DNA of 21,707 nt from a virus (Duplodnaviria > Heunggongvirae > Uroviricota > Caudoviricetes), in the IMG/VR virus record IMGVR_UViG_2529292922_000023; one strand, given 5' to 3'. The translations under genes and the position numbers were made by a program. Positions 306 through 14,256 of the stretch are shown piece after piece. The notes beneath the pieces were generated by a model. The model was not told the DNA's origin. It did no database searches and saw only the letters and a list, made by a program, of their open reading frames with translations. How positions within the stretch are numbered: position 1 is the stretch's first letter; the number at the start of each line of letters is the position of its first letter.

Positions 306-518
306 TCAGAACCTCGCCAGCCGATACCCGGGATGCCCCCGTCGTCGTGTAATCAGAGCCGCAAGGCGGCGCTCCCACTCCTGCCGTCCCTGCCGGATCT
401 CAGATAAGTTTTCCATGGTCATCTGCTGACCATTAAAGGTGACGGATTTTCCGTCCAGCACCGCCATTTCAGCTTCCGTATAACGCTGAATCATGGCTTC
501 GATATCATTCTGGTTCAT
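306..518 (-). CDS. W: gpW-like head-tail joining / head completion protein
   Basis: About 70 aa; position immediately after terminase large subunit as in lambda; GGAGG 6 nt upstream of the internal ATG at 518, which overlaps the terminase stop (ATGA coupling), so 518 preferred over the ORF-track start 524. Confidence 0.55.
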   Translation of the reverse strand: MNQNDIEAMIQRYTEAEMAVLDGKSVTFNGQQMTMENLSEIRQGRQEWERRLAALITRRRGHPGYRLARF

Positions 519-2614
519 AACCATCCTCCGGAAGTCAGCCAGGGGTTAACATCGTCAGTTACTGTTTTCTTCCGTTTTTGTTTTTTAACAGGCGTGGATA
601 CCGGTTCCGGTGAGGATGACGGTTCGGTACTGTCCGGGACACACTCCAGCCAGGTTTCCCGGCTCGCCCACTCCGGTGCATCCGGCCAGCGGATCTTTTC
701 GTATCCATGCAGAATGACCAGAGCCTCGGCATACACCATCAGGTCAAAAGCTTCGTTGGCACCGCGACCCGGCTTACTCCATTTCCCGTCACTGCTCCGC
801 TCTTCATACGTCAGTTCGTCGTAAAACCAGCTCCCCAGCCAGTCAGGGAAATGCACATAGCCGGGACCTGGCGAGTCACGCCATAACGCGTTATTTACCC
901 GGTCTTTCAGTGCATCCGTCTGAAGAAGCCAGAGCGGCACATCACCTGCGGCCTGCGCCCGTCGGCCCGTTCGTCCGGTGTTATCAGGGAATGTACGGGT
1001 GATCAGTTTTGCGCGCCGGATGCTGTCGCCCTTAAACAGGTAAATACGTTTACCAAGGCCATCACGACGGCAACGACGCCAGAATTTATAGGCATTATCA
1101 GTGACCCCGTCTTCACCGCCGGAGTCCACCGCCATTGCCATCAGTCGCATTTGTTGAGAAGGATCGGAGGCCAGCGGCCAGCTTTTATGAAAAACATCTG
1201 TCAGCAGGACATCCCAGTCTTCCGGATAGCTGGCCGGATCAATTCGCTGGCTCTCCCCGTCGCTGTCACCGCGCAATGACTGCGTGATGTTGTAACGATC
1301 AATAATCCAGCGTTCGCCACGGCTGCCATAGCCCGTTACCTGAACCACAAAACGGCGATGACGTCCCGCCTGCACATCCACTGTCGCCACAAGAAAATTA
1401 ACGCCATCCGGCACACTGCGGGAATGAACTGGCTCTGCCCGCTGCTCAAGCAGTTCACTTTTTCGTTGCTCCATGCTGGCGCGGGGAAGATAAGGTAATC
1501 CCCAGTCGGTGTTGATAACCGCCCTGAGTGTTTCTTCACTTCCTGTCGCTTCATACTCCTGTTCTGCAGTCAGTAATTTGTAAACCAGTTGCGCCCAGGT
1601 CTGATACGCAGCAGCTGGCCCTTCCATCCAGAAACTGGCGATACGGGAGCGGCGCGGTTCACCGGAAACGTTGCCGTTACAATCAATGACCTGACCTTCA
1701 CGCAACCAGACTCCTGCACTATTGAGCTCACGCTTTTTCTCCGCAGTGATAATGCCGCTGCAGTGCGGGCAAAGTAGATACGCCGCCTCACTGGCTTTAA
1801 AGGGATCCGGTTCATTACGGTAGCCGGTCATGGCATCCATGGCTGGCTGAAAATATTCACCGCAGTGCGGACATGGCCAGTACCAGCGGCGGCGGTCACC
1901 ACGATTGTAAAGGGAAAGAATACCAGTCGTCGGTGGCGCTTCATGAGGCGACTTACGTCGCCATTTGCTGTCGCAGATGTCACGTCCCGGCGAGCTCTCC
2001 ACCAGAGTCATCCCGGAGGACATAAATGTGGTGGTACGTTTTGAGGCCAGGGAGAAACCATCACCCTCGCTGTCGATATTCTCCGGAAAACGGTCGTAAT
2101 CGGTTAAGGCGACAAACCGGTAATCCGACGACGACATAATGTTGACCGAGGGCCAACCAATTTTAAGGAACGAGCCATCCCTGAACGTCTTATCATGGAC
2201 ATTATTGTCATTACGACGTGGACTCATTCTTTTCTTTACCGCCGCACTGCTTCTGAACGTTCTGTCGAGGCGCTTTTTTGAATGCTCGCGGGCCTTATCT
2301 TCGGTCATCTGCACAACGAGCATGTCCGAAGGATCGCAAACGATGGTATAGACAATCCATCCATCGATCAGACCAATGGTCTTCCCTGTTCGCGCAGGAC
2401 CAACAAAAATCACCGCATCGTATTCACGCGATGCCAGGCAGTTCATGGGCTCAATGATGTAGGGTGTCAGTTCAGGATCCCATGGCACCGAGTTACCAGC
2501 CCCCTTGGGAACACGCATGAATTTTTTAACAGCCTCCGAAATCGGCATGCGACGTGGTGGAGAAAATCCTGCCGATATGTCCCTTCCCAAATTTCGGGCT
2601 GATGAAAAACCCAT
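515..2614 (-). CDS. Terminase large subunit (lambda gpA family)
   Basis: 699-aa ORF; double CPHC motif (CPHCGEYF...LCPHCSGII) matching the lambda gpA CPHCGEE...LCEHNACVI region; ATPase and nuclease-sized domains; follows the Nu1-like gene. Confidence 0.9.
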   Translation of the reverse strand: MGFSSARNLGRDISAGFSPPRRMPISEAVKKFMRVPKGAGNSVPWDPELTPYIIEPMNCLASREYDAVIFVGPARTGKTIGLIDGWIVYTIVCDPSDMLVVQMTEDKAREHSKKRLDRTFRSSAAVKKRMSPRRNDNNVHDKTFRDGSFLKIGWPSVNIMSSSDYRFVALTDYDRFPENIDSEGDGFSLASKRTTTFMSSGMTLVESSPGRDICDSKWRRKSPHEAPPTTGILSLYNRGDRRRWYWPCPHCGEYFQPAMDAMTGYRNEPDPFKASEAAYLLCPHCSGIITAEKKRELNSAGVWLREGQVIDCNGNVSGEPRRSRIASFWMEGPAAAYQTWAQLVYKLLTAEQEYEATGSEETLRAVINTDWGLPYLPRASMEQRKSELLEQRAEPVHSRSVPDGVNFLVATVDVQAGRHRRFVVQVTGYGSRGERWIIDRYNITQSLRGDSDGESQRIDPASYPEDWDVLLTDVFHKSWPLASDPSQQMRLMAMAVDSGGEDGVTDNAYKFWRRCRRDGLGKRIYLFKGDSIRRAKLITRTFPDNTGRTGRRAQAAGDVPLWLLQTDALKDRVNNALWRDSPGPGYVHFPDWLGSWFYDELTYEERSSDGKWSKPGRGANEAFDLMVYAEALVILHGYEKIRWPDAPEWASRETWLECVPDSTEPSSSPEPVSTPVKKQKRKKTVTDDVNPWLTSGGWL

Positions 2615-2622
2615 TATTCCTC

Positions 2623-3150
2623 CTAGAGACTCTCTCCTTCCTCATCAGGAATTAATTCAGCAGCACAAGCCTCGTAGGATTTTTCCTGAAGAGTGTATCG
2701 CAGGTCATCAATGGCCTGCTGTACAACGCCAACGGCCTGAGGAGTCAGGGCGCAATCGCGTTCAAGAACATCCGGAATTGTCTCCAGAACCTGGACGACA
2801 GCCTTTCTCATGGACGAATAGACGATGACTACTTCATCAACGGGGATGAGTTTTCGCTGCTCCTTTTCCAGCTTGATCCTTTCATTTTCAGACTGGTACC
2901 AGTCCTTTCTCTCTTTCGGCTCCATACGGGATGGATCATGAACAGAGTCTGCTGCCTCATGCTTCACACTAAACAGGGCTGGCCCGACATGCTGCAGGGC
3001 GTAAACGGGGTTCCCCCTGACAGTCGCAGCCACAGGAGTGTTGGCCGCGAGAAGCCGTTTTTTTACTGTGTCCCGGTGAAGCCCAAAGGCCTCAGCGATT
3101 TTAAAAACACTCCAGTAATAAGCATCACCGATCCCGCTCACATTTGACAT
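2623..3150 (-). CDS. Terminase small subunit (Nu1-like, N-terminal HTH)
   Basis: Lies about 185 bp from the cos-like sequence and directly upstream of the large subunit; N-terminal HTH-like segment (WSVFKIAEAFGLHRDTVKKRL); start set at ATG 3150 (GGAG 7 nt upstream) rather than ORF-track 3180. Confidence 0.7.
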   Translation of the reverse strand: MSNVSGIGDAYYWSVFKIAEAFGLHRDTVKKRLLAANTPVAATVRGNPVYALQHVGPALFSVKHEAADSVHDPSRMEPKERKDWYQSENERIKLEKEQRKLIPVDEVVIVYSSMRKAVVQVLETIPDVLERDCALTPQAVGVVQQAIDDLRYTLQEKSYEACAAELIPDEEGESL

Positions 3151-3324
3151 AAGCAACTCCATCTGGCAGGTGAAAATCATGTTTATTTATATATTTCAAT
3201 TAATTGTAAACTGGTCTAATGACAGGGAGAAAAAAATATTGTACAGGTAAAAAGAGAAATAACTTTTAATTATCAATAAATTACCAAACATGCTGCCGCC
3301 GCCATGGAAATGCAAAAACTAGCC

Positions 3325-3997: not shown

Positions 3998-4465
3998 CTA
4001 CTTAATGCGCTGGGTGCGGATATATTCCTGCGCCCCTTCCAGTTGCTTCTGCATCGTCATCAACCGTTCTCTGAGGGTGAAATAATCCCGTTCAGCGGTG
4101 TCTGCCAGTCGGGGGCTGGTTGCATTATCCATGCTGGTGGGTCCGGTGGCTTCACGCACGGCTGCGGAGCAACTGGCATTGACCCGCAGGCGCTTACGAC
4201 CAGCGGCAACATCAGCGCGCAGAGTTTCATTTTCAGTTTTCGCATCGGCTAACTCCTTCGTGTATTTTGCATCGATCGCAGCAACATCACGCTGACGCTG
4301 CTGCATGTCAGCGATGGTGGCGGTCGCCTGCTTCAGCTCACTGACTTTTTTATCACGCTGTTCTTTGTAGGCGATGGCGTTATCACGGTAATGATTAACA
4401 GCCCATGACAGGCAGGCGATAATGCAGATAACCAGAGCGGAGATAATAACGGTTACCCTGCTCAT
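3998..4465 (-). CDS. Rz: Rz i-spanin
   Basis: Translation [39 protein letters not shown]...[13 protein letters not shown] is close to lambda Rz; N-terminal TM helix; start moved to ATG 4465 (ORF track used an upstream GTG). Confidence 0.9.
4060..4245 (-). CDS. Rz1: Rz1 o-spanin lipoprotein, embedded in Rz in the +1 frame
   Basis: [22 protein letters not shown]... has a lipobox with Cys, proline-rich [30 protein letters not shown], close to lambda Rz1. Confidence 0.85.
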
Positions 4466-4959
4466 TGTTGCCCCCACAAACAGACTTCACGCTCAATCTC
4501 GCGGCGAGTCATCAGCCCTTTCCATTGCTTACCGCCAGCGTATGTCCAGCGCCGTAGCTGATCACATGCGCCTTTGATATCGCCCTGGTTTATTTTGCGA
4601 AGAAGCGTCGATGTTCTGAAATTGCCAGCGCCCACGTTGTAAACGAACGAGTAAAGAGCGCCGCGCGTTGTTTCCGGTATATCGACGTTGATGTACGGGT
4701 TAATTTGTCTGGCGACCGTGGCAAGGTCTTTATTCAGGAGGGCTTTGCATTCTGCTTCGGTATACGTTTTACCGAGCATAATGTCTTTTCCGGTGTGCCC
4801 GTAACATACAGTCCATACACCAACGATATCTTTATATGGTATGTAGCTGACGCCTTCCAGACCATCGTTACCACTTGGGCCAGTGATTAACACAGATGCT
4901 ATAGCAATAGCCCCGCCACCAATAGCCGCAGCAACGGCTTTTCGTAATGATGGAGGCAT
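4462..4959 (-). CDS. R: SAR endolysin (phage 21 R-type lysozyme, GH24)
   Basis: N-terminal Gly/Ala-rich signal-anchor-release segment ([18 protein letters not shown]) followed by a T4-lysozyme-like catalytic region ([22 protein letters not shown]); matches my recollection of P21 R. Confidence 0.9.
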
Positions 4960-5174
4960 TATTCACCTCTCGCAGCCTTACGCTTGTCTTCTCTGATTTT
5001 GAAGTACAGATTTGTCAGGTAAGTCAGAAAGCCCAGAACCAGACTTCCCAGCACACCAATCGCAGCCCACTGTGACGGACTGACCTGATCAAGCCACTGT
5101 AAAAACCAGTAGCCAGCACTACCAGCGGATGTTCCGTAGGCAATGCCAGTAGAGATTTTGTCCATTGATTTCAT
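4959..5174 (-). CDS. S: Pinholin (class II holin, S21-like) with dual-start motif
   Basis: 71 aa, MKSMDK... dual start (Met1/Met4), two TM segments, C-terminal basic tail; matches my recollection of phage 21 S. Confidence 0.85.
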
Positions 5175-5296
5175 AGCAACGCCTCCGCCAGTAACGGATT
5201 GCGTAGTTCTTATATTGGGAAGGGGAAAAAAGAAGGCCGCAGCGTAACTATCACTAATAAATTCAGGACAGCCAGTGGCTACGGCTCAGTTTGGGT

Positions 5297-5341
5297 TGTG
5301 GCGGCCGGAATCGAACCGGCTTCCATCGGTGCGCTGCCGAT
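5297..5341 (-). other. tRNA-like 3' fragment (T-arm plus anticodon-arm-like hairpin), not a complete tRNA
   Basis: Minus strand has a canonical T-arm GCCGG-TTCGATT-CCGGC (5304..5320) preceded by a perfect 5-bp stem / 7-nt loop hairpin ATCGG-CAGCGCA-CCGAT (5325..5341); no matching 5' acceptor strand or D-arm found and no CCA. Confidence 0.35.
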
Positions 5342-5489
5342 TGCAGTACGCGCGGCGGTCAGCTATATGACTAGTATTTTCACTATCGCCTATCTGCTAG
5401 CTCGCCATTGAGCTTCACCACAACGATAAGAGCACTGCGCGGCACCTTTCACCAATTCCGCGAGGTCTGCGGGTTCAATGCTCTTACCT

Positions 5490-5526
5490 GTTGTGCAGAA
5501 AAAAAACCACACGGCAGCGAGTTTAA
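5490..5526 (-). terminator. Intrinsic terminator on the late (minus) strand, tR'-equivalent position upstream of S
   Basis: Minus-strand RNA forms CCACAC-AGC...GCU-(GCC)-GUGUGG hairpin followed by U8 (forward A8 at 5490..5497); the flanking CTGCACAACAGGTAAGAGCATTGA matches what I recall of the lambda tR' region. Confidence 0.5.
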
Positions 5527-5576
5527 GCTGTGTGGCGAAGTTACCTCTCTTCACCAAGTATTCGGTAATAAAATAA

Positions 5577-5609
5577 CTTGTGGTGTTCTCGTTTTTATGC
5601 CGATAAAAT
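5577..5609 (+). promoter_or_regulatory. Candidate sigma70 promoter for the moron gene
   Basis: TTGTGG (5577..5582), 18-20 nt spacer, TAAAAT-like -10 inside GATAAAAT, about 25 bp upstream of GGAG RBS and ATG 5639. Confidence 0.3.
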
Positions 5610-5638
5610 AAACGGTCCACTTTCAAATGGAGCGATTC

Positions 5639-6559
5639 ATGATTTTTCTCAGAACTGAAAACGGCATCGAGAAACTTGAAAACTGGGAGGAAATTATATC
5701 CAGACCAAACTTTGTCACCACTATAGACAAAGGAGTTCAACAACTTGAGGAGATAATTGGTTACTACAAATTTAAAGAAGAAATCCACTGTGGTCTAACT
5801 GGTTGCAACCAACCACATCAAATGGGTTATATTGTAAAAACATCTAGTGGCATTGAAACCAACATCGGAAATAAATGTGGTAAAAACGAATTTGGTGTGG
5901 AATTTGGTGAAAACGTTCTTAGTTTCAATAAATTTATGCAACTCGAAACCAATCGGGAAATTATTAGCACCGCAAAAAGTAAATGTGAAGCGTGGCAAAA
6001 AAATATTGAAACGATACGAAATATCAAACCCACAATAGATTATCTATCTTCTACCATCGAAAATAGTAAAAATTCCAATTACTCCGGAAGACTTGGTGCT
6101 ACAGAAATTCGTTTTTTGACCAAGAACCAGACAGGCCTTGTAACCCTTTCTGAAGTGGAAACTGATAAGAATACCAAAACAATTCTGTTCGCAATGAATG
6201 AACACATGCGCGAGTCTGGAGAGGCAATAAGTGAATTCTACATAGGAAAAGTATCATTTAGTCATGTTCTTTTACCAGAAAACAATCTTCGTGATTTTTT
6301 TGTTGCGCTCAAAGAAGATCTAAAAAAAATTCAGTGTATTGATCTACAAACAGCCCCAAGCCCAGAAATTTCTAATGTTGCCAAAATTGCCAGTTCAATC
6401 GAAGAACGAATCAAGCGATTAAAAAAACTGAAACATGAAGCCAGTAAATTCCTAACTAAAAAAAATCTGCGTCCCATCGCAAACAAAATAAAATACTCAT
6501 CGACAGCGGATGAACTTGAATTCCATAATTTCGAACGCTTTTTAAAAGGGCTGAAATGA
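5639..6559 (+). CDS. Moron: AT-rich hypothetical protein (about 306 aa), opposite strand, inserted between Q and the lysis cassette
   Basis: Long clean ORF on the opposite strand to all flanking phage genes; markedly AT-rich; GGAG RBS 6 nt before ATG 5639 (ORF-track start 5627 has no RBS); stem-loop terminator 4 nt after the stop; Lys/Asn/Glu-rich with a Cys/His cluster (HCGLTGCNQPH...KCGK) and predicted coiled-coil C-terminus; no family recognised. Confidence 0.7.
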   Translation: MIFLRTENGIEKLENWEEIISRPNFVTTIDKGVQQLEEIIGYYKFKEEIHCGLTGCNQPHQMGYIVKTSSGIETNIGNKCGKNEFGVEFGENVLSFNKFMQLETNREIISTAKSKCEAWQKNIETIRNIKPTIDYLSSTIENSKNSNYSGRLGATEIRFLTKNQTGLVTLSEVETDKNTKTILFAMNEHMRESGEAISEFYIGKVSFSHVLLPENNLRDFFVALKEDLKKIQCIDLQTAPSPEISNVAKIASSIEERIKRLKKLKHEASKFLTKKNLRPIANKIKYSSTADELEFHNFERFLKGLK

Positions 6560-6562
6560 TAA

Positions 6563-6580
6563 AAGCCCCGAAAGGGGCTT
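6563..6580. terminator. Bidirectional stem-loop terminator (7-bp stem, GAAA tetraloop) between Q/pR' and the moron
   Basis: AAGCCCC-GAAA-GGGGCTT; on the minus strand followed by UUUUAUCAUUU, on the plus strand placed 4 nt after the moron stop with a weaker U-tract. Confidence 0.6.
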
Positions 6581-6673
6581 CTATCAAAATCATTTACGCA
6601 TTATTCCGCATGCTTAAAAGAATACATGACAGATTCGGACAAAATCAAGTGCAATGTCGCAAAAACCCTAAGC

Positions 6674-7504
6674 TTAGTTCACATCATCACCAAAACTTGT
6701 CACATTCTGAAAAGCAATATCGGCCTTACGCTCTTCCTGGTGGCAAATGTCAACCAGAGAATCAAGAAACGGCTTCCAATTACGCGTCCATGTCCTGACA
6801 TGTAGCTCGGGTATCCGCTTCAGTACAACTTTATATACTGTGGTAGACGGTACCGTGGAAAATCCATTTCCGCTGCAACGTTCGCAGATTTTAAACACTG
6901 GCACACCACGCTCGCTTGTGGCTTTGCGGTCCAGTACCTCTCCCTTTCCACCACAACGACACCTGGCACTTATCACTCCCTTCCCTTTACATACATCGCA
7001 AACGACTGGTACAACTTCCGTTACCTCTGTCCATTTCTCCCAGTCTGACGGTCGAACAGCACGGGAGCGACTGGCCCAATATGGTGCTTTACCCCATGGG
7101 TATGAAACCTTACGAATGACCTGCTTACGGGGTGTTAGTCCGGTACCACTGCAACTATGGCATGTTACGCTGGTGTCCGCCGATCGGGAATACTCAGCAA
7201 AAGCAAACTGCGCCAGTACCAGCATACACCAGCCAAATTCACCACCAGCTGCTTTACGCACATTCTTCGGTGCAATTTCCATCGCGTGACGCGCCAGCGC
7301 TTGGACTGCCATCTGCTCATCAGTCTTGCTGATACCGGCCTTCCCGAAGAAGGCCGCCAAGCCAAACCGTTCACGATTGCTGGTGGTACCAATAGCCGCC
7401 ATAACATCGGTGCCTGTAAGACGTTCCGGAGAGGTTCCTTTCACATCGTCGCCGATATACATTCCCTGAGGACTGAAGTATTTTAGCGATGCCTCAAGCT
7501 TCAT
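6674..7504 (-). CDS. Q: Late antiterminator Q (lambda Q family) with expanded zinc-binding region
   Basis: N-terminus (KYFSPQG...LTGTDVMAAIG) and C-terminus (KVVLKRIPELHVRTWTRNWKPFLDSLVDICHQEERKADIAFQNVT) align with lambda Q (LIPNLTQPTWSRTVKPLYDALVVQCHKEESIADNILNAVT); central region carries four CxxCxGxG-like repeats. Confidence 0.85.
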   Translation of the reverse strand: MKLEASLKYFSPQGMYIGDDVKGTSPERLTGTDVMAAIGTTSNRERFGLAAFFGKAGISKTDEQMAVQALARHAMEIAPKNVRKAAGGEFGWCMLVLAQFAFAEYSRSADTSVTCHSCSGTGLTPRKQVIRKVSYPWGKAPYWASRSRAVRPSDWEKWTEVTEVVPVVCDVCKGKGVISARCRCGGKGEVLDRKATSERGVPVFKICERCSGNGFSTVPSTTVYKVVLKRIPELHVRTWTRNWKPFLDSLVDICHQEERKADIAFQNVTSFGDDVN

Positions 7505-8361
7505 TATTCACACTCCCCAACCAGATTAAGAATAACCGCCGCGCCATTGTCTTTCATATATTCGCCCTTTCCGCTTGCCAAAAACCAACGACACACCTCC
7601 ACTGCTTCAGCCCGTGTCACCGGTTTGATGGTCATCAGCAATTTTTCAAGGTAGCGCTCGCGGTCATATACCGATTCGTGATGCTCAGAGTAACCATACT
7701 CATCGCCCTGTTCTTTAGACGCAGTGTGGCGAACACTGTAGAGCCAGTCCCAGTAAACAAACTCACGAACTACGTCTGACAATGTATGAGGCTCTGGCAG
7801 TACATCACGATAGCCATCAACATATGCACGACGCTGATCATCAATTTCATTCATACGGATGCCATCAATTCTGCCCGCTGTCTTCTCGGCTGCAGTCCAG
7901 CCCCAGAGATGATCGTCGATAAATTTCTGGGAAGACTTGATCACTCGCTCGGCTTCCACATCTTCGAGTGCTGCTTCATAGCTACCAAACGTAGCCCTGA
8001 CTGATGTTGCTTTTTTGATATTCTCCCGGGCGATCCTGATTGCCTGTGCCGGGTTATCCATGCCGATGGTACCGAAAGCAATCTGGAAAGGATCACCACC
8101 ATTCGCCAGCAGATAACGCGAATAGCGTTCCTGGGCCTCTTTTGGGGAAATTTTAATTTTCACCAGCGCAGCCTCAGCAGCATCCAGATGTGCGGGTTCG
8201 TTCAGACGGATAACCTCCAGCACCCAAAGATAAGCATCAGTCTGCTTATGCCCGGTGATTCTCCGTTGCTCTGGCAGGGGCTTGATGTTTGCGAGGGCGG
8301 AGCTGTACGCTGCCGTCGGGATGGTGAATAGTGCTTTATGTTCGTTGTTATCAGTACGCAT
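7504..8361 (-). CDS. Hypothetical protein (285 aa), nin-region position between primase and Q
   Basis: Long ORF translationally coupled to primase upstream and Q downstream; no family recognised. Confidence 0.55.
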   Translation of the reverse strand: MRTDNNEHKALFTIPTAAYSSALANIKPLPEQRRITGHKQTDAYLWVLEVIRLNEPAHLDAAEAALVKIKISPKEAQERYSRYLLANGGDPFQIAFGTIGMDNPAQAIRIARENIKKATSVRATFGSYEAALEDVEAERVIKSSQKFIDDHLWGWTAAEKTAGRIDGIRMNEIDDQRRAYVDGYRDVLPEPHTLSDVVREFVYWDWLYSVRHTASKEQGDEYGYSEHHESVYDRERYLEKLLMTIKPVTRAEAVEVCRWFLASGKGEYMKDNGAAVILNLVGECE

Positions 8362-9329
8362 TACGCAACCGCCTTTTTCTTATGGAAAACCAGCTCTCGA
8401 ACCTGATCACCGTTCATGAGCATATTGTTGAAATCATCGTGATCCGGCCAGTACACGCTCACGCGCTGCAGGTCATTCTTTGCCATCAGATTGGCATGAG
8501 CACATTCGCAAGCCGCAGCCAGCCCGGTGGCGCTGTTCTCGTCACGGTCGGCAAAAATAATCAGGTGCAGAACACCAGCTGGTACGCGGAACTTTTTCAT
8601 AAAGCCGCTGTTAATGGTTGCCCAGGTGTTCACGTTATAAATCTGGTGCGCTGACAGCGCTGTTTCGATGCCTTCGGCGATACCCAGAGTGCTAGCAACA
8701 GGAAACATGCGGATAGCTACAGAACGAGCGTGATCCAAATAGTTATCTTCCTGCAGGGATTTGAGGCGCTTTGCACTGCTACCGATATCTGCTTTTTTAT
8801 CACCATCAAGCAGAGTCTGGTGCAGATAGCACAACTCCCCTTTATCGTCCGTAGCAAGTGAATAAAGAGACTGGAACACACTCCCGTTGTGTCTCTGCCT
8901 GGCATTGAACCGGATCGCCTCAGCAGGAAGACTGAATATTCCACGAGAATTAAGATACGCTGCGCCGGATGTACCACGCAGTGCCTCCAGTTTTGAAAAC
9001 TTGCTCAATACCCGTTTGCGTAAGCTGGTGGCGCTGCTGGTTACCGGGATTTTAACCCGTTGGTAATCATTACCGCTCAGGCGGTCTATTTCGGTACAAA
9101 TCTCGTTAAATGGCTTCGCCTGTGTCAGGGTGACAAGTTTCATACCATCGCCACTACCACATACACAGATCCACGTTCCTGCACCGTCGCGGTCATCAAT
9201 TCGGAACTTGCCACGTGCACCGCATACCGGGCATTCACCCTTGAAGTGATTTTTTCCTGTTATCGGCGGCAAGCCGAAGTGCTCTAATATTTCAGGCCAG
9301 CGGCCTTTCGCTGCAGCTGCTGTTTTCAT
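8361..9329 (-). CDS. DNA primase (N-terminal zinc-binding CxxC...CxC motif plus Toprim-like region)
   Basis: GECPVCGARGKFRIDDRDGAGTWICVCGSGDG zinc-finger signature typical of phage/plasmid primases; acidic DRDE-like motifs; coupled to the helicase gene. Confidence 0.7.
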   Translation of the reverse strand: MKTAAAAKGRWPEILEHFGLPPITGKNHFKGECPVCGARGKFRIDDRDGAGTWICVCGSGDGMKLVTLTQAKPFNEICTEIDRLSGNDYQRVKIPVTSSATSLRKRVLSKFSKLEALRGTSGAAYLNSRGIFSLPAEAIRFNARQRHNGSVFQSLYSLATDDKGELCYLHQTLLDGDKKADIGSSAKRLKSLQEDNYLDHARSVAIRMFPVASTLGIAEGIETALSAHQIYNVNTWATINSGFMKKFRVPAGVLHLIIFADRDENSATGLAAACECAHANLMAKNDLQRVSVYWPDHDDFNNMLMNGDQVRELVFHKKKAVA

Positions 9330-11675: not shown

Positions 11676-13980
<2,305 letters not shown>

Positions 13981-13983
13981 TCA

Positions 13984-14256
13984 TCATTCGTTTTTCATAA
14001 CTGCCGCATTTGTGGCTGTGTGACTTCTACGTAACAAATCAGGGATTGCATCTTCAGGATGGGGATAAAGATCTGGTCTTAACCCATGAGGAGTAACTTT
14101 CCATTCCACAACTTCACATACACGCAAGACGAAACGAGCAGGAATTGTTCTTTTTGAAAACCATTGGTTCACAGCTTGCGGCGTAACGCCTAGATTTCGC
14201 GCTATGGCATTTTGTGCAATTAGCTCACGAAGTGCGTCGTAATCATTTCCTTTCAT
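13984..14256 (-). CDS. cro: Cro-like HTH regulator
   Basis: 90 aa, divergent from the cI-like gene across a 134-bp operator region; HTH segment (RNLGVTPQAVNQWFSKRTIP). Confidence 0.65.
   Translation of the reverse strand: MKGNDYDALRELIAQNAIARNLGVTPQAVNQWFSKRTIPARFVLRVCEVVEWKVTPHGLRPDLYPHPEDAIPDLLRRSHTATNAAVMKNE

What the first reader, a model, noticed from the sequence alone, without database searches (positions are those of the whole stretch)
5577..6585. AT-rich opposite-strand moron of unknown function between Q and the lysis genes
A roughly 306-aa ORF (5639..6559) runs against the late operon, is clearly more AT-rich than its neighbours, and has its own candidate promoter, RBS and a terminator 4 nt after the stop. 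It sits between the Q stop and the tR'-like terminator at 5490..5526. This is the classic lambdoid moron slot (where stx sits in Stx phages), and such cargo is expressed from the lysogen. The protein has a Cys/His cluster (HCGLTGCNQPH...KCGKNEF) and a Lys-rich predicted coiled-coil C-terminus; I recognise no family. It is my best candidate for a novel lysogen-expressed function such as abortive infection or exclusion.
Basis: partly seen in the sequence, partly recalled or inferred. Interest (0 to 1): 0.8.

Follow-up and report, generated by a model that had tools for sequence, protein, structure and literature searches.

The report
Orphan zinc-protein prophage moron beside Q
This is a real, strongly conserved but completely uncharacterised prophage accessory gene (a 306-residue soluble protein with an invariant zinc-type Cys3His motif) that sits backwards between the late-gene activator Q and the lysis genes; related phages carry it either there or beside the repressor gene, which makes it a good untested candidate for a lysogen-expressed anti-phage function.

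Summary
A 306-aa ORF (5639..6559, +) runs against the late operon, has GC 0.35 against about 0.51 in the flanks, and is under strong purifying selection (dN/dS about 0.09). It is PHROG 7003 ("unknown function"), a large family of 843 clusters at 50% identity. No member matches Pfam, NCBIfam, PADLOC or PDB, and the confident AlphaFold model has no meaningful fold match.

Anatomy:
- An N-terminal beta domain with invariant C51/C56/H60/C80, twice as conserved as the rest.
- A fast-evolving helical two-thirds with no conserved catalytic residues.
- No transmembrane segment.

The cassette is bracketed by two minus-strand terminators. Its stop codon abuts a hairpin that aligns with phi80's first terminator after pR'. 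Q-modified late transcription must therefore read antisense through the gene.

In 59 of 85 viral loci the gene is convergent with Q, across three Q lineages. In most other phage loci it lies beside or directly behind the CI-type repressor, the rexAB/bstA position. Chromosomal copies are low-GC islets, some inside defence islands.

Best reading: a lysogen-expressed, non-enzymatic superinfection-exclusion or abortive-infection protein, switched off by Q read-through. Both function and regulation are inferred, not shown.

The parts
5490..5526 (-). Distal terminator of the cassette: hairpin stem 5500-5526 followed, on the - strand, by T8 (5499->5491). It lies between the gene's promoter and the holin.
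   Evidence: Sequence; fold. The T-run and distal flank are homologous to the HK75 region annotated Tr'. The hairpin plus A/T-run travels with the gene in Stx2f prophages.
5581..5609 (+). Candidate own promoter: -35-like TGGTGT (5581-5586), 17-nt spacer, -10 TAAAAT (5604-5609).
   Evidence: The -10 sits at a fixed 29-30 nt from the ATG in loci down to 57% protein identity; TATAAT lies at 40-48 nt in more divergent clades. Not found by the generic scan. The -35 is weak (2-3 of 6).
5629..5632 (+). Shine-Dalgarno GGAG, 6 nt before ATG 5639.
   Evidence: Sequence; conserved AATGGAGCGATTC leader.
5639..6559 (+). CDS, 306 aa, PHROG 7003. Soluble 35-kDa protein, pI 8.4.
5639..5896 (+). N-terminal beta domain (residues 1-86) carrying the invariant CCHC motif. 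Codons: C51 5789-5791, C56 5804-5806, H60 5816-5818, C80 5876-5878.
5897..6556 (+). Helical two-thirds (residues 87-306): a 42-residue helix, a small alpha/beta middle, and a basic C-terminal helical bundle (pI 9.8). Fast-evolving; the only invariant residue is N276.
   Evidence: Only generic helical-bundle fold hits.
6562..6581 (.). GC-rich hairpin (AAAGCCCC-GAAA-GGGGCTT) 3 nt after the stop. Stable on both strands, with the better U-tail on the - strand. It occupies the position of tR' of the Q module.
   Evidence: It aligns with phi80's annotated first terminator after pR'. A hairpin occupies this position in all four enterobacterial loci inspected.
6619..6648 (-). Candidate late promoter pR': -35 TTGATT (6648->6643), 18 nt, -10 TATTCT (6624->6619), 26 nt after the Q stop.
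   Evidence: Aligns with the annotated pR' -35/QBE/-10 of phi80, whose Q is 41% identical. Conserved in the Salmonella and 611R1 loci. Not found by the generic scan.
6674..7504 (-). Late antiterminator Q (276 aa), convergent with the gene.
   Evidence: Pfam PF03589 2.6e-52; PHROG 127.

Best explanation
A self-contained lysogenic-conversion cassette encoding a soluble, non-enzymatic zinc-binding protein. Its most likely role is to protect the lysogen against other phages at an intracellular step (superinfection exclusion or abortive-infection type).

Proposed working, with the status of each step:
1. Inferred from conserved elements: in the lysogen the gene is transcribed from its own weak sigma-70-type promoter (5581-5609) and ends at the hairpin at 6562-6581.
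2. Inferred by homology to phi80: pR' fires constitutively but stops at that same hairpin, so nothing runs antisense through the gene.
3. Follows from the anatomy if the pR' assignment is right, but otherwise untested: when the prophage itself is induced, Q-modified polymerase reads through the hairpin, runs 0.9 kb antisense across the gene and through the second terminator (5526-5490) into the lysis genes. This shuts the gene down by transcriptional interference, a built-in form of self-immunity.
4. Inferred from conservation only: the invariant CCHC N-domain is the constant 'business end' that binds a conserved partner (nucleic acid or protein). The rapidly diverging helical part sets specificity or oligomerisation.
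For: Real, selected gene:
- dN/dS is 0.08-0.10.
- The family has 843 clusters, almost all stand-alone proteins of about 300 aa.

Hallmarks of mobile cargo:
- GC is 6-17 points below the flanks everywhere.
- Only about 16 of 5,426 complete E. coli genomes carry it.
- One prophage with the same Q retains only a 27-codon deletion remnant.
- The same Q lineage (76-88% identical) carries an allele only 25% identical.

Placement typical of lysogen-expressed genes:
- The gene is convergent with Q in 41 of 42 plus 18 of 42 viral loci, across three Q lineages.
- In 7-8 of 16 other phage loci it lies next to a Peptidase_S24/HTH repressor. In four of these it is directly downstream on the same strand, with gaps of 50-158 nt.
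- It also lies beside cro and a putative repressor in a Klebsiella phage and beside a RelE/HTH toxin-antitoxin pair in a Burkholderia phage.

Defence neighbourhoods:
- A type I RM S subunit and Gabija GajA/GajB on one side, a DUF2726 protein on the other.
- VapBC.
- A methyltransferase, an AAA_15 ATPase and a ResIII helicase on an integrase-bearing island.
- A RelA_SpoT protein and an AAA_21 ATPase as neighbours in prophages.
- ICE cargo.
- Intact solitary chromosomal copies show that the protein works without its phage.

Protein properties:
- Soluble, no transmembrane segment, so it is not a surface or entry blocker.
- No conserved catalytic constellation outside the zinc site.

Regulatory anatomy.

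Precedent: Tab of phage JBD26 is encoded on the minus strand, with its own promoter, inside the late operon (PMC10884400).
Against: - There is no experimental or transcriptomic evidence of any kind. No paper mentions the protein.
- None of 47 members convincingly matches a PADLOC model.
- Only 2-3 of 8 non-phage contexts are defence-rich; four are plain housekeeping neighbourhoods.
- The promoter has a poor -35 and was missed by the consensus scan. AT-rich genes in enterobacteria are often H-NS-silenced (general knowledge).
- The + strand U-tail of the hairpin is weak, so termination of the gene's own mRNA is uncertain.
- The pR' assignment rests on alignment to a phage whose Q is only 41% identical.
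- For the PF06530-type Q loci, pR' was not mapped.
- No effector domain is evident, so the means of stopping a phage is unknown.
Confidence: 0.42

Rival explanations
1. A regulator of the phage's own life cycle. It would be a protein, or simply the act of convergent transcription, that tunes late-gene or repressor expression, for example by damping leaky pR' read-through into the lysis genes or stx2f, or by modulating Q or CI. This would explain why it sits next to the two master regulators.
For: The two recurrent positions are beside Q/pR' (59 of 85 viral loci) and beside CI (7-8 of 16 others). The 3' end is fixed to the tR'-position hairpin while the 5' neighbour varies. Two terminators bracket it upstream of the lysis genes and of stx2f.
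Against: Intact, selected copies exist as solitary genes between housekeeping genes, on an ICE and in defence islands with no phage around. The same Q lineage tolerates alleles only 25% identical, or loss of the gene altogether. phi80, with a homologous Q/pR'/terminator layout, has no such gene.
Confidence: 0.17
2. A host-directed lysogenic-conversion factor unrelated to phage defence. Examples would be a zinc-finger nucleic-acid-binding regulator or a stress or fitness factor that changes host physiology or virulence.
For: It occupies the slot used by stx and other conversion genes, and it is present in Stx2f prophages and in a very common Salmonella prophage (870 collection blocks). The zinc-binding small beta-barrel N-domain and the basic C-terminus (pI 9.8) are compatible with nucleic-acid binding.
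Against: The family spans hosts with unrelated lifestyles (Gallionella, Thiobacillus, marine bacteria, Pseudomonas, Burkholderia, enterics). There is no signal peptide or transmembrane segment. No HTH or known DNA-binding family was detected in any of 47 members.
Confidence: 0.17
3. An enzyme with a cryptic active site: either a His-Me/treble-clef-type nuclease in the N-domain or a nucleotidyltransferase/alarmone-synthetase-like fold in the middle. It would act as a toxin/effector.
For: The N-domain contains a beta-hairpin followed by a helix with the Cys/His ligands. A profile search of the PDB gives small alarmone synthetases as its top, marginal hits (E 0.022 and 0.18).
Confidence: 0.06

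Closest known systems
BstA (Salmonella prophage BTP1; Owen et al., bioRxiv 10.1101/2020.07.13.199331)
   Same: A single protein of about 300 aa encoded by prophages of diverse Proteobacteria. It has a two-part architecture (N-terminal putative binding domain plus a helical C-terminal part), no enzymatic domain, a position by the repressor in many phages, and a need for self-immunity when the prophage goes lytic.
   Different: No sequence or profile similarity. The KilA-N domain that characterises BstA is absent in all 47 members tested, and there is no PADLOC hit. The zinc CCHC domain here has no counterpart in BstA. The self-immunity proposed here is transcriptional (Q read-through), not an aba DNA element.
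Lambda rexAB / P22 sieB class of repressor-linked exclusion genes (general knowledge)
   Same: In a subset of loci the gene lies directly downstream of the CI-type repressor on the same strand (L106, L109-L111), the place from which rexAB is co-transcribed with cI in lysogens.
   Different: No homology. RexB and SieB are membrane proteins, whereas this protein is soluble. In enterobacterial phages the preferred slot is by Q, not by cI.
Tab of Pseudomonas phage JBD26 (PMC10884400) and lambda bor (general knowledge): antisense morons inside the late operon
   Same: Encoded on the strand opposite to the late operon, with an own promoter, hence expressed from the prophage. Tab is a proven defence gene whose own phage needs a late-expressed countermeasure.
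   Different: Tab is 83 aa and lies between the terminase genes. Bor is a lipoprotein. No sequence relationship, and no partner 'anti' gene is evident here.
Tai (phi80 ORF63; PMC11364771)
   Same: A lambdoid-prophage moron conferring defence, found in several hotspots.
   Different: BLASTP finds no similarity (best E 7.1). Tai is 204 aa and sits upstream of the packaging genes.
stx and other cargo of the Q-to-S interval of lambdoid phages
   Same: Same hot-spot. In Stx2f prophages the two coexist, in the order Q, this gene (antisense), stxA2f, stxB2f, tRNAs, holin.
   Different: stx is in the sense orientation and depends on Q read-through for expression. This gene is antisense and would be opposed by it.

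Membership tests
PHROG 7003 (unknown function) | End-to-end match to the family profile | tested here: met
   E 1.7e-110; residues 5-310 of the 310-aa ORF match profile positions 1-309 of 309.
Phage 'moron' (Juhala et al. 2000 sense, cited) | Extra gene absent from close relatives, with composition different from its neighbours | tested here: met
   Present in about 16 of 5,426 E. coli genomes. Absent from phi80, or reduced to a remnant, next to a related Q. GC 0.354 against about 0.51.
Phage 'moron' (Juhala et al. 2000 sense) | Own promoter and terminator allowing expression from the repressed prophage | tested here: inconclusive
   A conserved -10-like element at a fixed distance, and flanking hairpins. 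No consensus promoter by scan, and no transcript data.
BstA | N-terminal KilA-N(-like) domain | tested here: not met
Tai (phi80 ORF63) | Sequence homology to ORF63 | tested here: not met
   BLASTP best E 7.1.
Known anti-phage defence systems (PADLOC-DB 2.0.0) | Match to any of 5,027 models | tested here: not met
   No hit for the window protein. Among 47 members there are only three single hits, at E 0.002-0.008.
His-Me finger / HNH nucleases | Conserved catalytic His plus metal-binding Asn/His on a beta-beta-alpha element, separate from structural zinc ligands | tested here: not met
RelA/SpoT-homologue small alarmone synthetases | Conserved synthetase motifs and nucleotidyltransferase fold | tested here: not met
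   Marginal profile hit only (E 0.022). No invariant residue in the aligned region. No PF04607 hit. Absent from the fold-search hits.
Structural zinc site (treble-clef-like CCHC) | Four invariant Cys/His ligands positioned on a knuckle, a strand and a helix N-terminus; metal actually bound | tested here: inconclusive
   C-x4-C-x3-H-x19-C is invariant in 47 members, and the secondary-structure placement fits.
Lambdoid late-operon control region (pR'-tR') | Promoter just downstream of Q followed by an intrinsic terminator that Q overrides | tested here: inconclusive
   The window's Q is 41% identical to phi80 Q. The annotated phi80 pR' and first terminator align with window 6648-6619 and 6581-6562. 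The hairpin has z -4.3 with a U-tail on the - strand. Function is not testable here.

The most novel reading that the evidence does not exclude
PHROG 7003 would be a new, widespread family of single-protein, non-enzymatic prophage immunity factors. An invariant zinc-stabilised small beta-barrel domain would do the constant job and a hypervariable helical body would set specificity. Expression would be hard-wired to the prophage switch by position. In one arrangement the gene is co-transcribed behind cI. In the other it is plugged tail-to-tail into tR', so that Q antitermination silences it by antisense read-through. That would be self-immunity achieved by genome geometry rather than by an antidote gene. 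In Stx2f phages the same geometry would add a second barrier to toxin expression.
Probability: 0.3. Interest if true: 0.75.

Novelty: new member of a known kind. Interest (0 to 1): 0.55.

Why it matters
The family is large: 843 clusters at 50% identity, spanning enteric pathogens, Pseudomonas, Burkholderia and environmental beta-proteobacteria. It is absent from every curated domain, defence and structure library searched, and it has a confidently predicted fold with no known relative.

It sits in medically relevant prophages, directly between Q and stx2f in Stx2f-converting phages and in a very common Salmonella prophage.

If it is a defence gene, it adds a new protein family and a simple positional mechanism of self-immunity. 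If it is instead a regulator, it would bear on how late genes and Shiga toxin 2f are kept silent in lysogens. Either way, the cassette is small (about 1.1 kb), self-contained and easy to test.

Tried and rejected
- Pfam, NCBIfam, PADLOC and PDB sequence searches with the single protein gave nothing.
- Scanning 47 divergent members individually against Pfam and PADLOC also gave nothing.
- A profile search of the PDB gave only a marginal hit to small alarmone synthetases. I rejected it because the family has no conserved residues in that region and no supporting fold hit.
- Tai and Tab were considered from the literature and excluded, Tai by direct comparison and Tab by size.
- ARAGORN found no tRNA in the window. 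Rfam found nothing above threshold in 5100-6750.
- The consensus promoter scan found no + strand promoter upstream of the gene and no - strand promoter after Q. Both assignments therefore rest on comparative alignment.
- A related-loci scan with the 47-member alignment failed for lack of a conserved stretch and was replaced by the A1 and A6 alignments.
- The genome contigs and metagenome-contig scans were not used. Viral loci and encoding-contig look-ups gave enough context.
Full report

Yes. An open reading frame runs on the + strand from 5627 to 6559. The functional start is almost certainly ATG 5639, giving 306 aa. GGAG lies 6 nt upstream at 5629-5632, and all homologues are 306-307 aa beginning MIF.

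Everything around the ORF is on the - strand:
- the Q antiterminator at 6674..7504 (Pfam Antiterm 2.6e-52; PHROG 127);
- a protein without a Pfam match at 7504..8361;
- a Toprim/zinc-ribbon primase at 8361..9329;
- on the other side, holin (4959..5174), lysozyme (4462..4959) and Rz (3998..4477).

Gene GC is 0.354 against 0.516 and 0.504 in the flanks.

The gene is under strong purifying selection. dN/dS is 0.08-0.10 against orthologues 75-85% identical.

**2. What family is it?**

The protein matches PHROG 7003 end to end (E 1.7e-110), and that family has no assigned function. It has no hit in Pfam, NCBIfam, PADLOC or PDB sequences.

A word-indexed search found 96 homologues in Escherichia, Salmonella, Enterobacter, Citrobacter, Leclercia, Pectobacterium and Providencia, all annotated "hypothetical". 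An exhaustive profile search found 843 clusters at 50% identity, 158 of them at E<=1e-30. Nearly all are stand-alone proteins of 280-330 aa.

A second branch is common in environmental beta-proteobacteria such as Gallionella, Thiobacillus and Sulfuricella. None of 47 divergent members hits any Pfam family, and none convincingly hits PADLOC. No paper in the library mentions the protein, its accessions or the PHROG.

**3. The protein**

AlphaFold2 with an 18-sequence alignment gives a confident model (pLDDT 89.7, pTM 0.76). It has four parts:
- an N-terminal beta domain (residues 1-86) ending in a beta-hairpin plus short helix that carries the Cys/His ligands;
- a 42-residue helix;
- a small alpha/beta middle region;
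- a C-terminal helical bundle.

The protein is soluble, with a maximum Kyte-Doolittle 19-residue mean of 0.73. It has an acidic N-domain and a basic C-terminal third (pI 9.8).

Across the family the N-domain is twice as conserved as the rest, 43% against 22% mean pairwise identity. The only invariant residue outside it is N276. Several phage proteins share just the N-domain, followed by an unrecognisably different C-terminus.

I read this as a constant zinc-stabilised binding module attached to a fast-evolving helical body, with no sign of a catalytic site. A marginal profile hit to small alarmone synthetases (E 0.022) has no supporting conserved motif or fold hit, and I treat it as noise.

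**4. Anatomy of the cassette and its relation to late transcription**

The window's Q is 41% identical to phi80 Q (E 2e-72). The phi80 record annotates the following elements in order:
- pR' (-35, Q-binding element, -10);
- a first terminator about 55-80 nt further on;
- a second terminator just before the holin.

Aligning the regions downstream of Q gives two correspondences:
- phi80's pR' falls on window 6648->6619 (- strand; TTGATT, 18 nt, TATTCT). This stretch is also conserved in the Salmonella and vB_EcoS-611R1 loci.
- phi80's first terminator falls on the hairpin at 6581->6562, which starts 3 nt after the stop codon of our gene.

That hairpin is very stable on both strands (-19.1 and -27.6 kcal/mol, z about -4.4). 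It has the more canonical U-tail on the - strand.

At the other end of the cassette, 5526->5490 is a hairpin plus T8 on the - strand. The T-run and the sequence to its left are homologous to the spot annotated Tr' in phage HK75. The stem and everything to its right travel with the gene, including in Stx2f prophages.

The cassette is therefore bracketed by two - strand terminators and lies inside the late transcription unit, antisense to it. The gene is not upstream of the only tR'; it sits between the tR'-position hairpin and a second terminator.

Upstream of the gene, a -10-like TAAAAT (5604-5609) with TGGTGT 17 nt before it sits at a fixed 29-30 nt from the ATG. This holds in all orthologous loci down to 57% protein identity, where synonymous sites are saturated. 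More divergent clades have TATAAT at 40-48 nt. The generic promoter scan missed both this element and pR', so both assignments are comparative inferences.

**5. Where the family sits in other genomes**

*Q-adjacent loci.* I examined 85 viral loci from two scans. In 59 of them the immediate 3' neighbour is a convergent Q antiterminator: 41 of the 42 first-scan loci and 18 of the 42 second-scan loci where a neighbour could be called.
- The gap between the gene and Q is 76-171 nt in nearly all of them.
- The pattern spans three Q lineages: the PF03589 type of this window, and two PF06530/DUF1133 types seen in Pectobacterium and Providencia.
- It holds for members only 24-30% identical to the window protein.
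- The 5' neighbour varies freely: holin, stxA2f, tRNAs or small ORFs.

*Allele turnover and loss at the slot:*
- The same Q lineage (76-88% identical to this Q) also carries a 314-aa allele only about 25% identical (phage vB_EcoS-611R1; loci L078 and L088-L097). This is wholesale allele replacement at a fixed slot.
- A prophage with the same Q but other cargo (2012EL-2448) retains just the last 27 codons of the gene next to the hairpin. The gene was lost there, not absent from the start.
- phi80 has the same Q/pR'/terminator layout without the gene.

*Repressor-adjacent loci.* Of 16 non-redundant phage loci where the gene is not next to Q, seven have a Peptidase_S24 CI-type repressor as near neighbour, and an eighth has an HTH protein. 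In four (L106, L109, L110, L111) the repressor is directly upstream on the same strand with a gap of 50-158 nt. That is the rexAB/bstA position. Other neighbours include a RelA_SpoT-domain protein and an AAA_21 ATPase.

*Deposited phages.* These show the same placement: beside cro and a putative repressor in a Klebsiella phage, near the repressor in a Pseudomonas phage, and next to a RelE/HTH toxin-antitoxin pair in a Burkholderia phage.

*Non-phage copies.* These are intact, low-GC, single-gene islets:
- Four lie between housekeeping genes.
- One lies beside VapBC.
- One lies in a defence island, with a type I RM S subunit, an HATPase and Gabija GajA/GajB upstream and DUF2726 downstream.
- One lies on an ICE next to ThiF and type IV secretion genes.
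- One lies on an integrase-bearing island with a methyltransferase, an AAA_15 ATPase and a ResIII helicase.

**6. Most likely function and mechanism**

The evidence points to an autonomous, horizontally mobile accessory gene:
- It is placed where temperate phages keep genes expressed from the prophage.
- It turns over rapidly, by presence/absence and by allele replacement.
- It is sometimes embedded among defence genes.
- It stays intact without any phage around it.

The best-supported reading is a lysogen-expressed anti-phage protein acting inside the cell. Because it lacks any enzymatic signature, it probably works by binding. The conserved zinc N-domain would engage a conserved partner, and the variable helical body would provide specificity or assembly.

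The geometry suggests how the resident phage would avoid self-harm. In lysogeny pR' transcripts stop at the shared hairpin and the gene is free to be expressed. After induction, Q-modified polymerase runs antisense through the whole gene. Antisense, own-promoter defence morons inside late operons have a proven precedent in Tab of JBD26 (PMC10884400).

I put about 0.42 on this overall reading, and less on the regulatory detail. Nothing here is shown experimentally.

The main rivals are:
- A role in the phage's own regulation. The proximity to Q and CI favours this; the solitary chromosomal copies and tolerated loss disfavour it.
- A host-directed conversion factor.
- A cryptic enzyme, which is unlikely.

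**7. Comparison with known systems**

By architecture and context the nearest analogue is BstA: a prophage-borne, repressor-linked protein of about 300 aa with an N-terminal binding domain, a helical C-terminus and a need for self-immunity. It is not a relative. The KilA-N domain that characterises BstA is absent, and no PADLOC model matches.

The protein is not Tai and not Tab (83 aa). It shares its slot with stx and coexists with stx2f.

**8. Verdict**

It is not a singleton novelty but a member of a large, entirely uncharacterised prophage family. As a kind of thing (a prophage moron, probably a defence gene) it is familiar. As a protein family and fold it is unassigned.

Two features raise it above a routine "hypothetical protein": its near-obligatory tail-to-tail coupling to the pR'/tR' region, or placement behind cI, and its position immediately upstream of stx2f. 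Interest 0.55.

Noticed in passing
window 11895-13696 (-): An IS21-family insertion sequence (IstA with rve and HTH domains, 12674..13696; IstB, 11895..12677) sits between cro (13984..14256) and the replication genes. It is absent from the otherwise collinear prophage of E. coli N61. It is probably polar on the early-right operon, so this prophage may be crippled.
   Followed up: partly
window 5293-5351 (-): A fragment resembling the tRNA-like 3' end of tmRNA (Rfam RF00023, E 9e-6, but 20 bits against a gathering score of 47). ARAGORN calls no tRNA. Stx2f relatives carry tRNA-Thr and tRNA-Gly in this interval, so it may be a tRNA or attachment-site remnant.
   Followed up: no
L001 (phage phi467, LN997803) 6140-7014: In the reference Stx2f phage phi467 the gene is annotated as two overlapping CDS, implying a frameshift or a sequencing error. 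In complete Stx2f-STEC genomes (for example 2015C-4136CT1) it is a single intact 306-aa CDS between Q and stxA2f.
   Followed up: partly
L017 (E. coli 2012EL-2448) 4989-5069: A prophage with a 94.5%-identical Q/pR' region but other cargo (methyltransferase remnant, three tRNAs, SASA/NanS-type esterase) keeps only the last 27 codons of the gene, of the P0002-type allele, next to the hairpin. This is a deletion scar.
   Followed up: yes
L012 (phage vB_EcoS-611R1) 4001-4945; L078, L088-L097: The same Q lineage (76-88% identical) carries, in the same antisense slot, a 314-aa family member only about 25% identical to the window protein. This is allele replacement rather than gradual divergence.
   Followed up: partly
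L061 (Gallionella MAG) about 6900-7000 and 7915-7945: The solitary chromosomal copy is flanked on both sides by the palindrome GGTGGGCAAC(nn)GTTGCCCACC. This could be a REP-like element or the ends of a small mobile cassette.
   Followed up: no
window 515-3180 (-) versus L002: The terminase here is the lambda gpA type with a DUF1441 small subunit, whereas the near-identical early and lysis region in E. coli N61 is joined to a P27-family small terminase. The window is a mosaic of P27/phi467-like and lambda-like modules.
   Followed up: no
window 7504-8361 (-): A 285-aa protein between the primase and Q has no Pfam match. It is conserved at this position in the E. coli, Stx2f and Salmonella relatives, and RefSeq calls it 'helix-turn-helix domain containing' in N61.
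   Followed up: no
L065/L066 5555-7903: On an integrative conjugative element the family member lies 30 nt downstream of a 471-aa ThiF/E1-like gene and two small ORFs, just before the type IV coupling protein. This may be a multi-gene system in that lineage.
   Followed up: no
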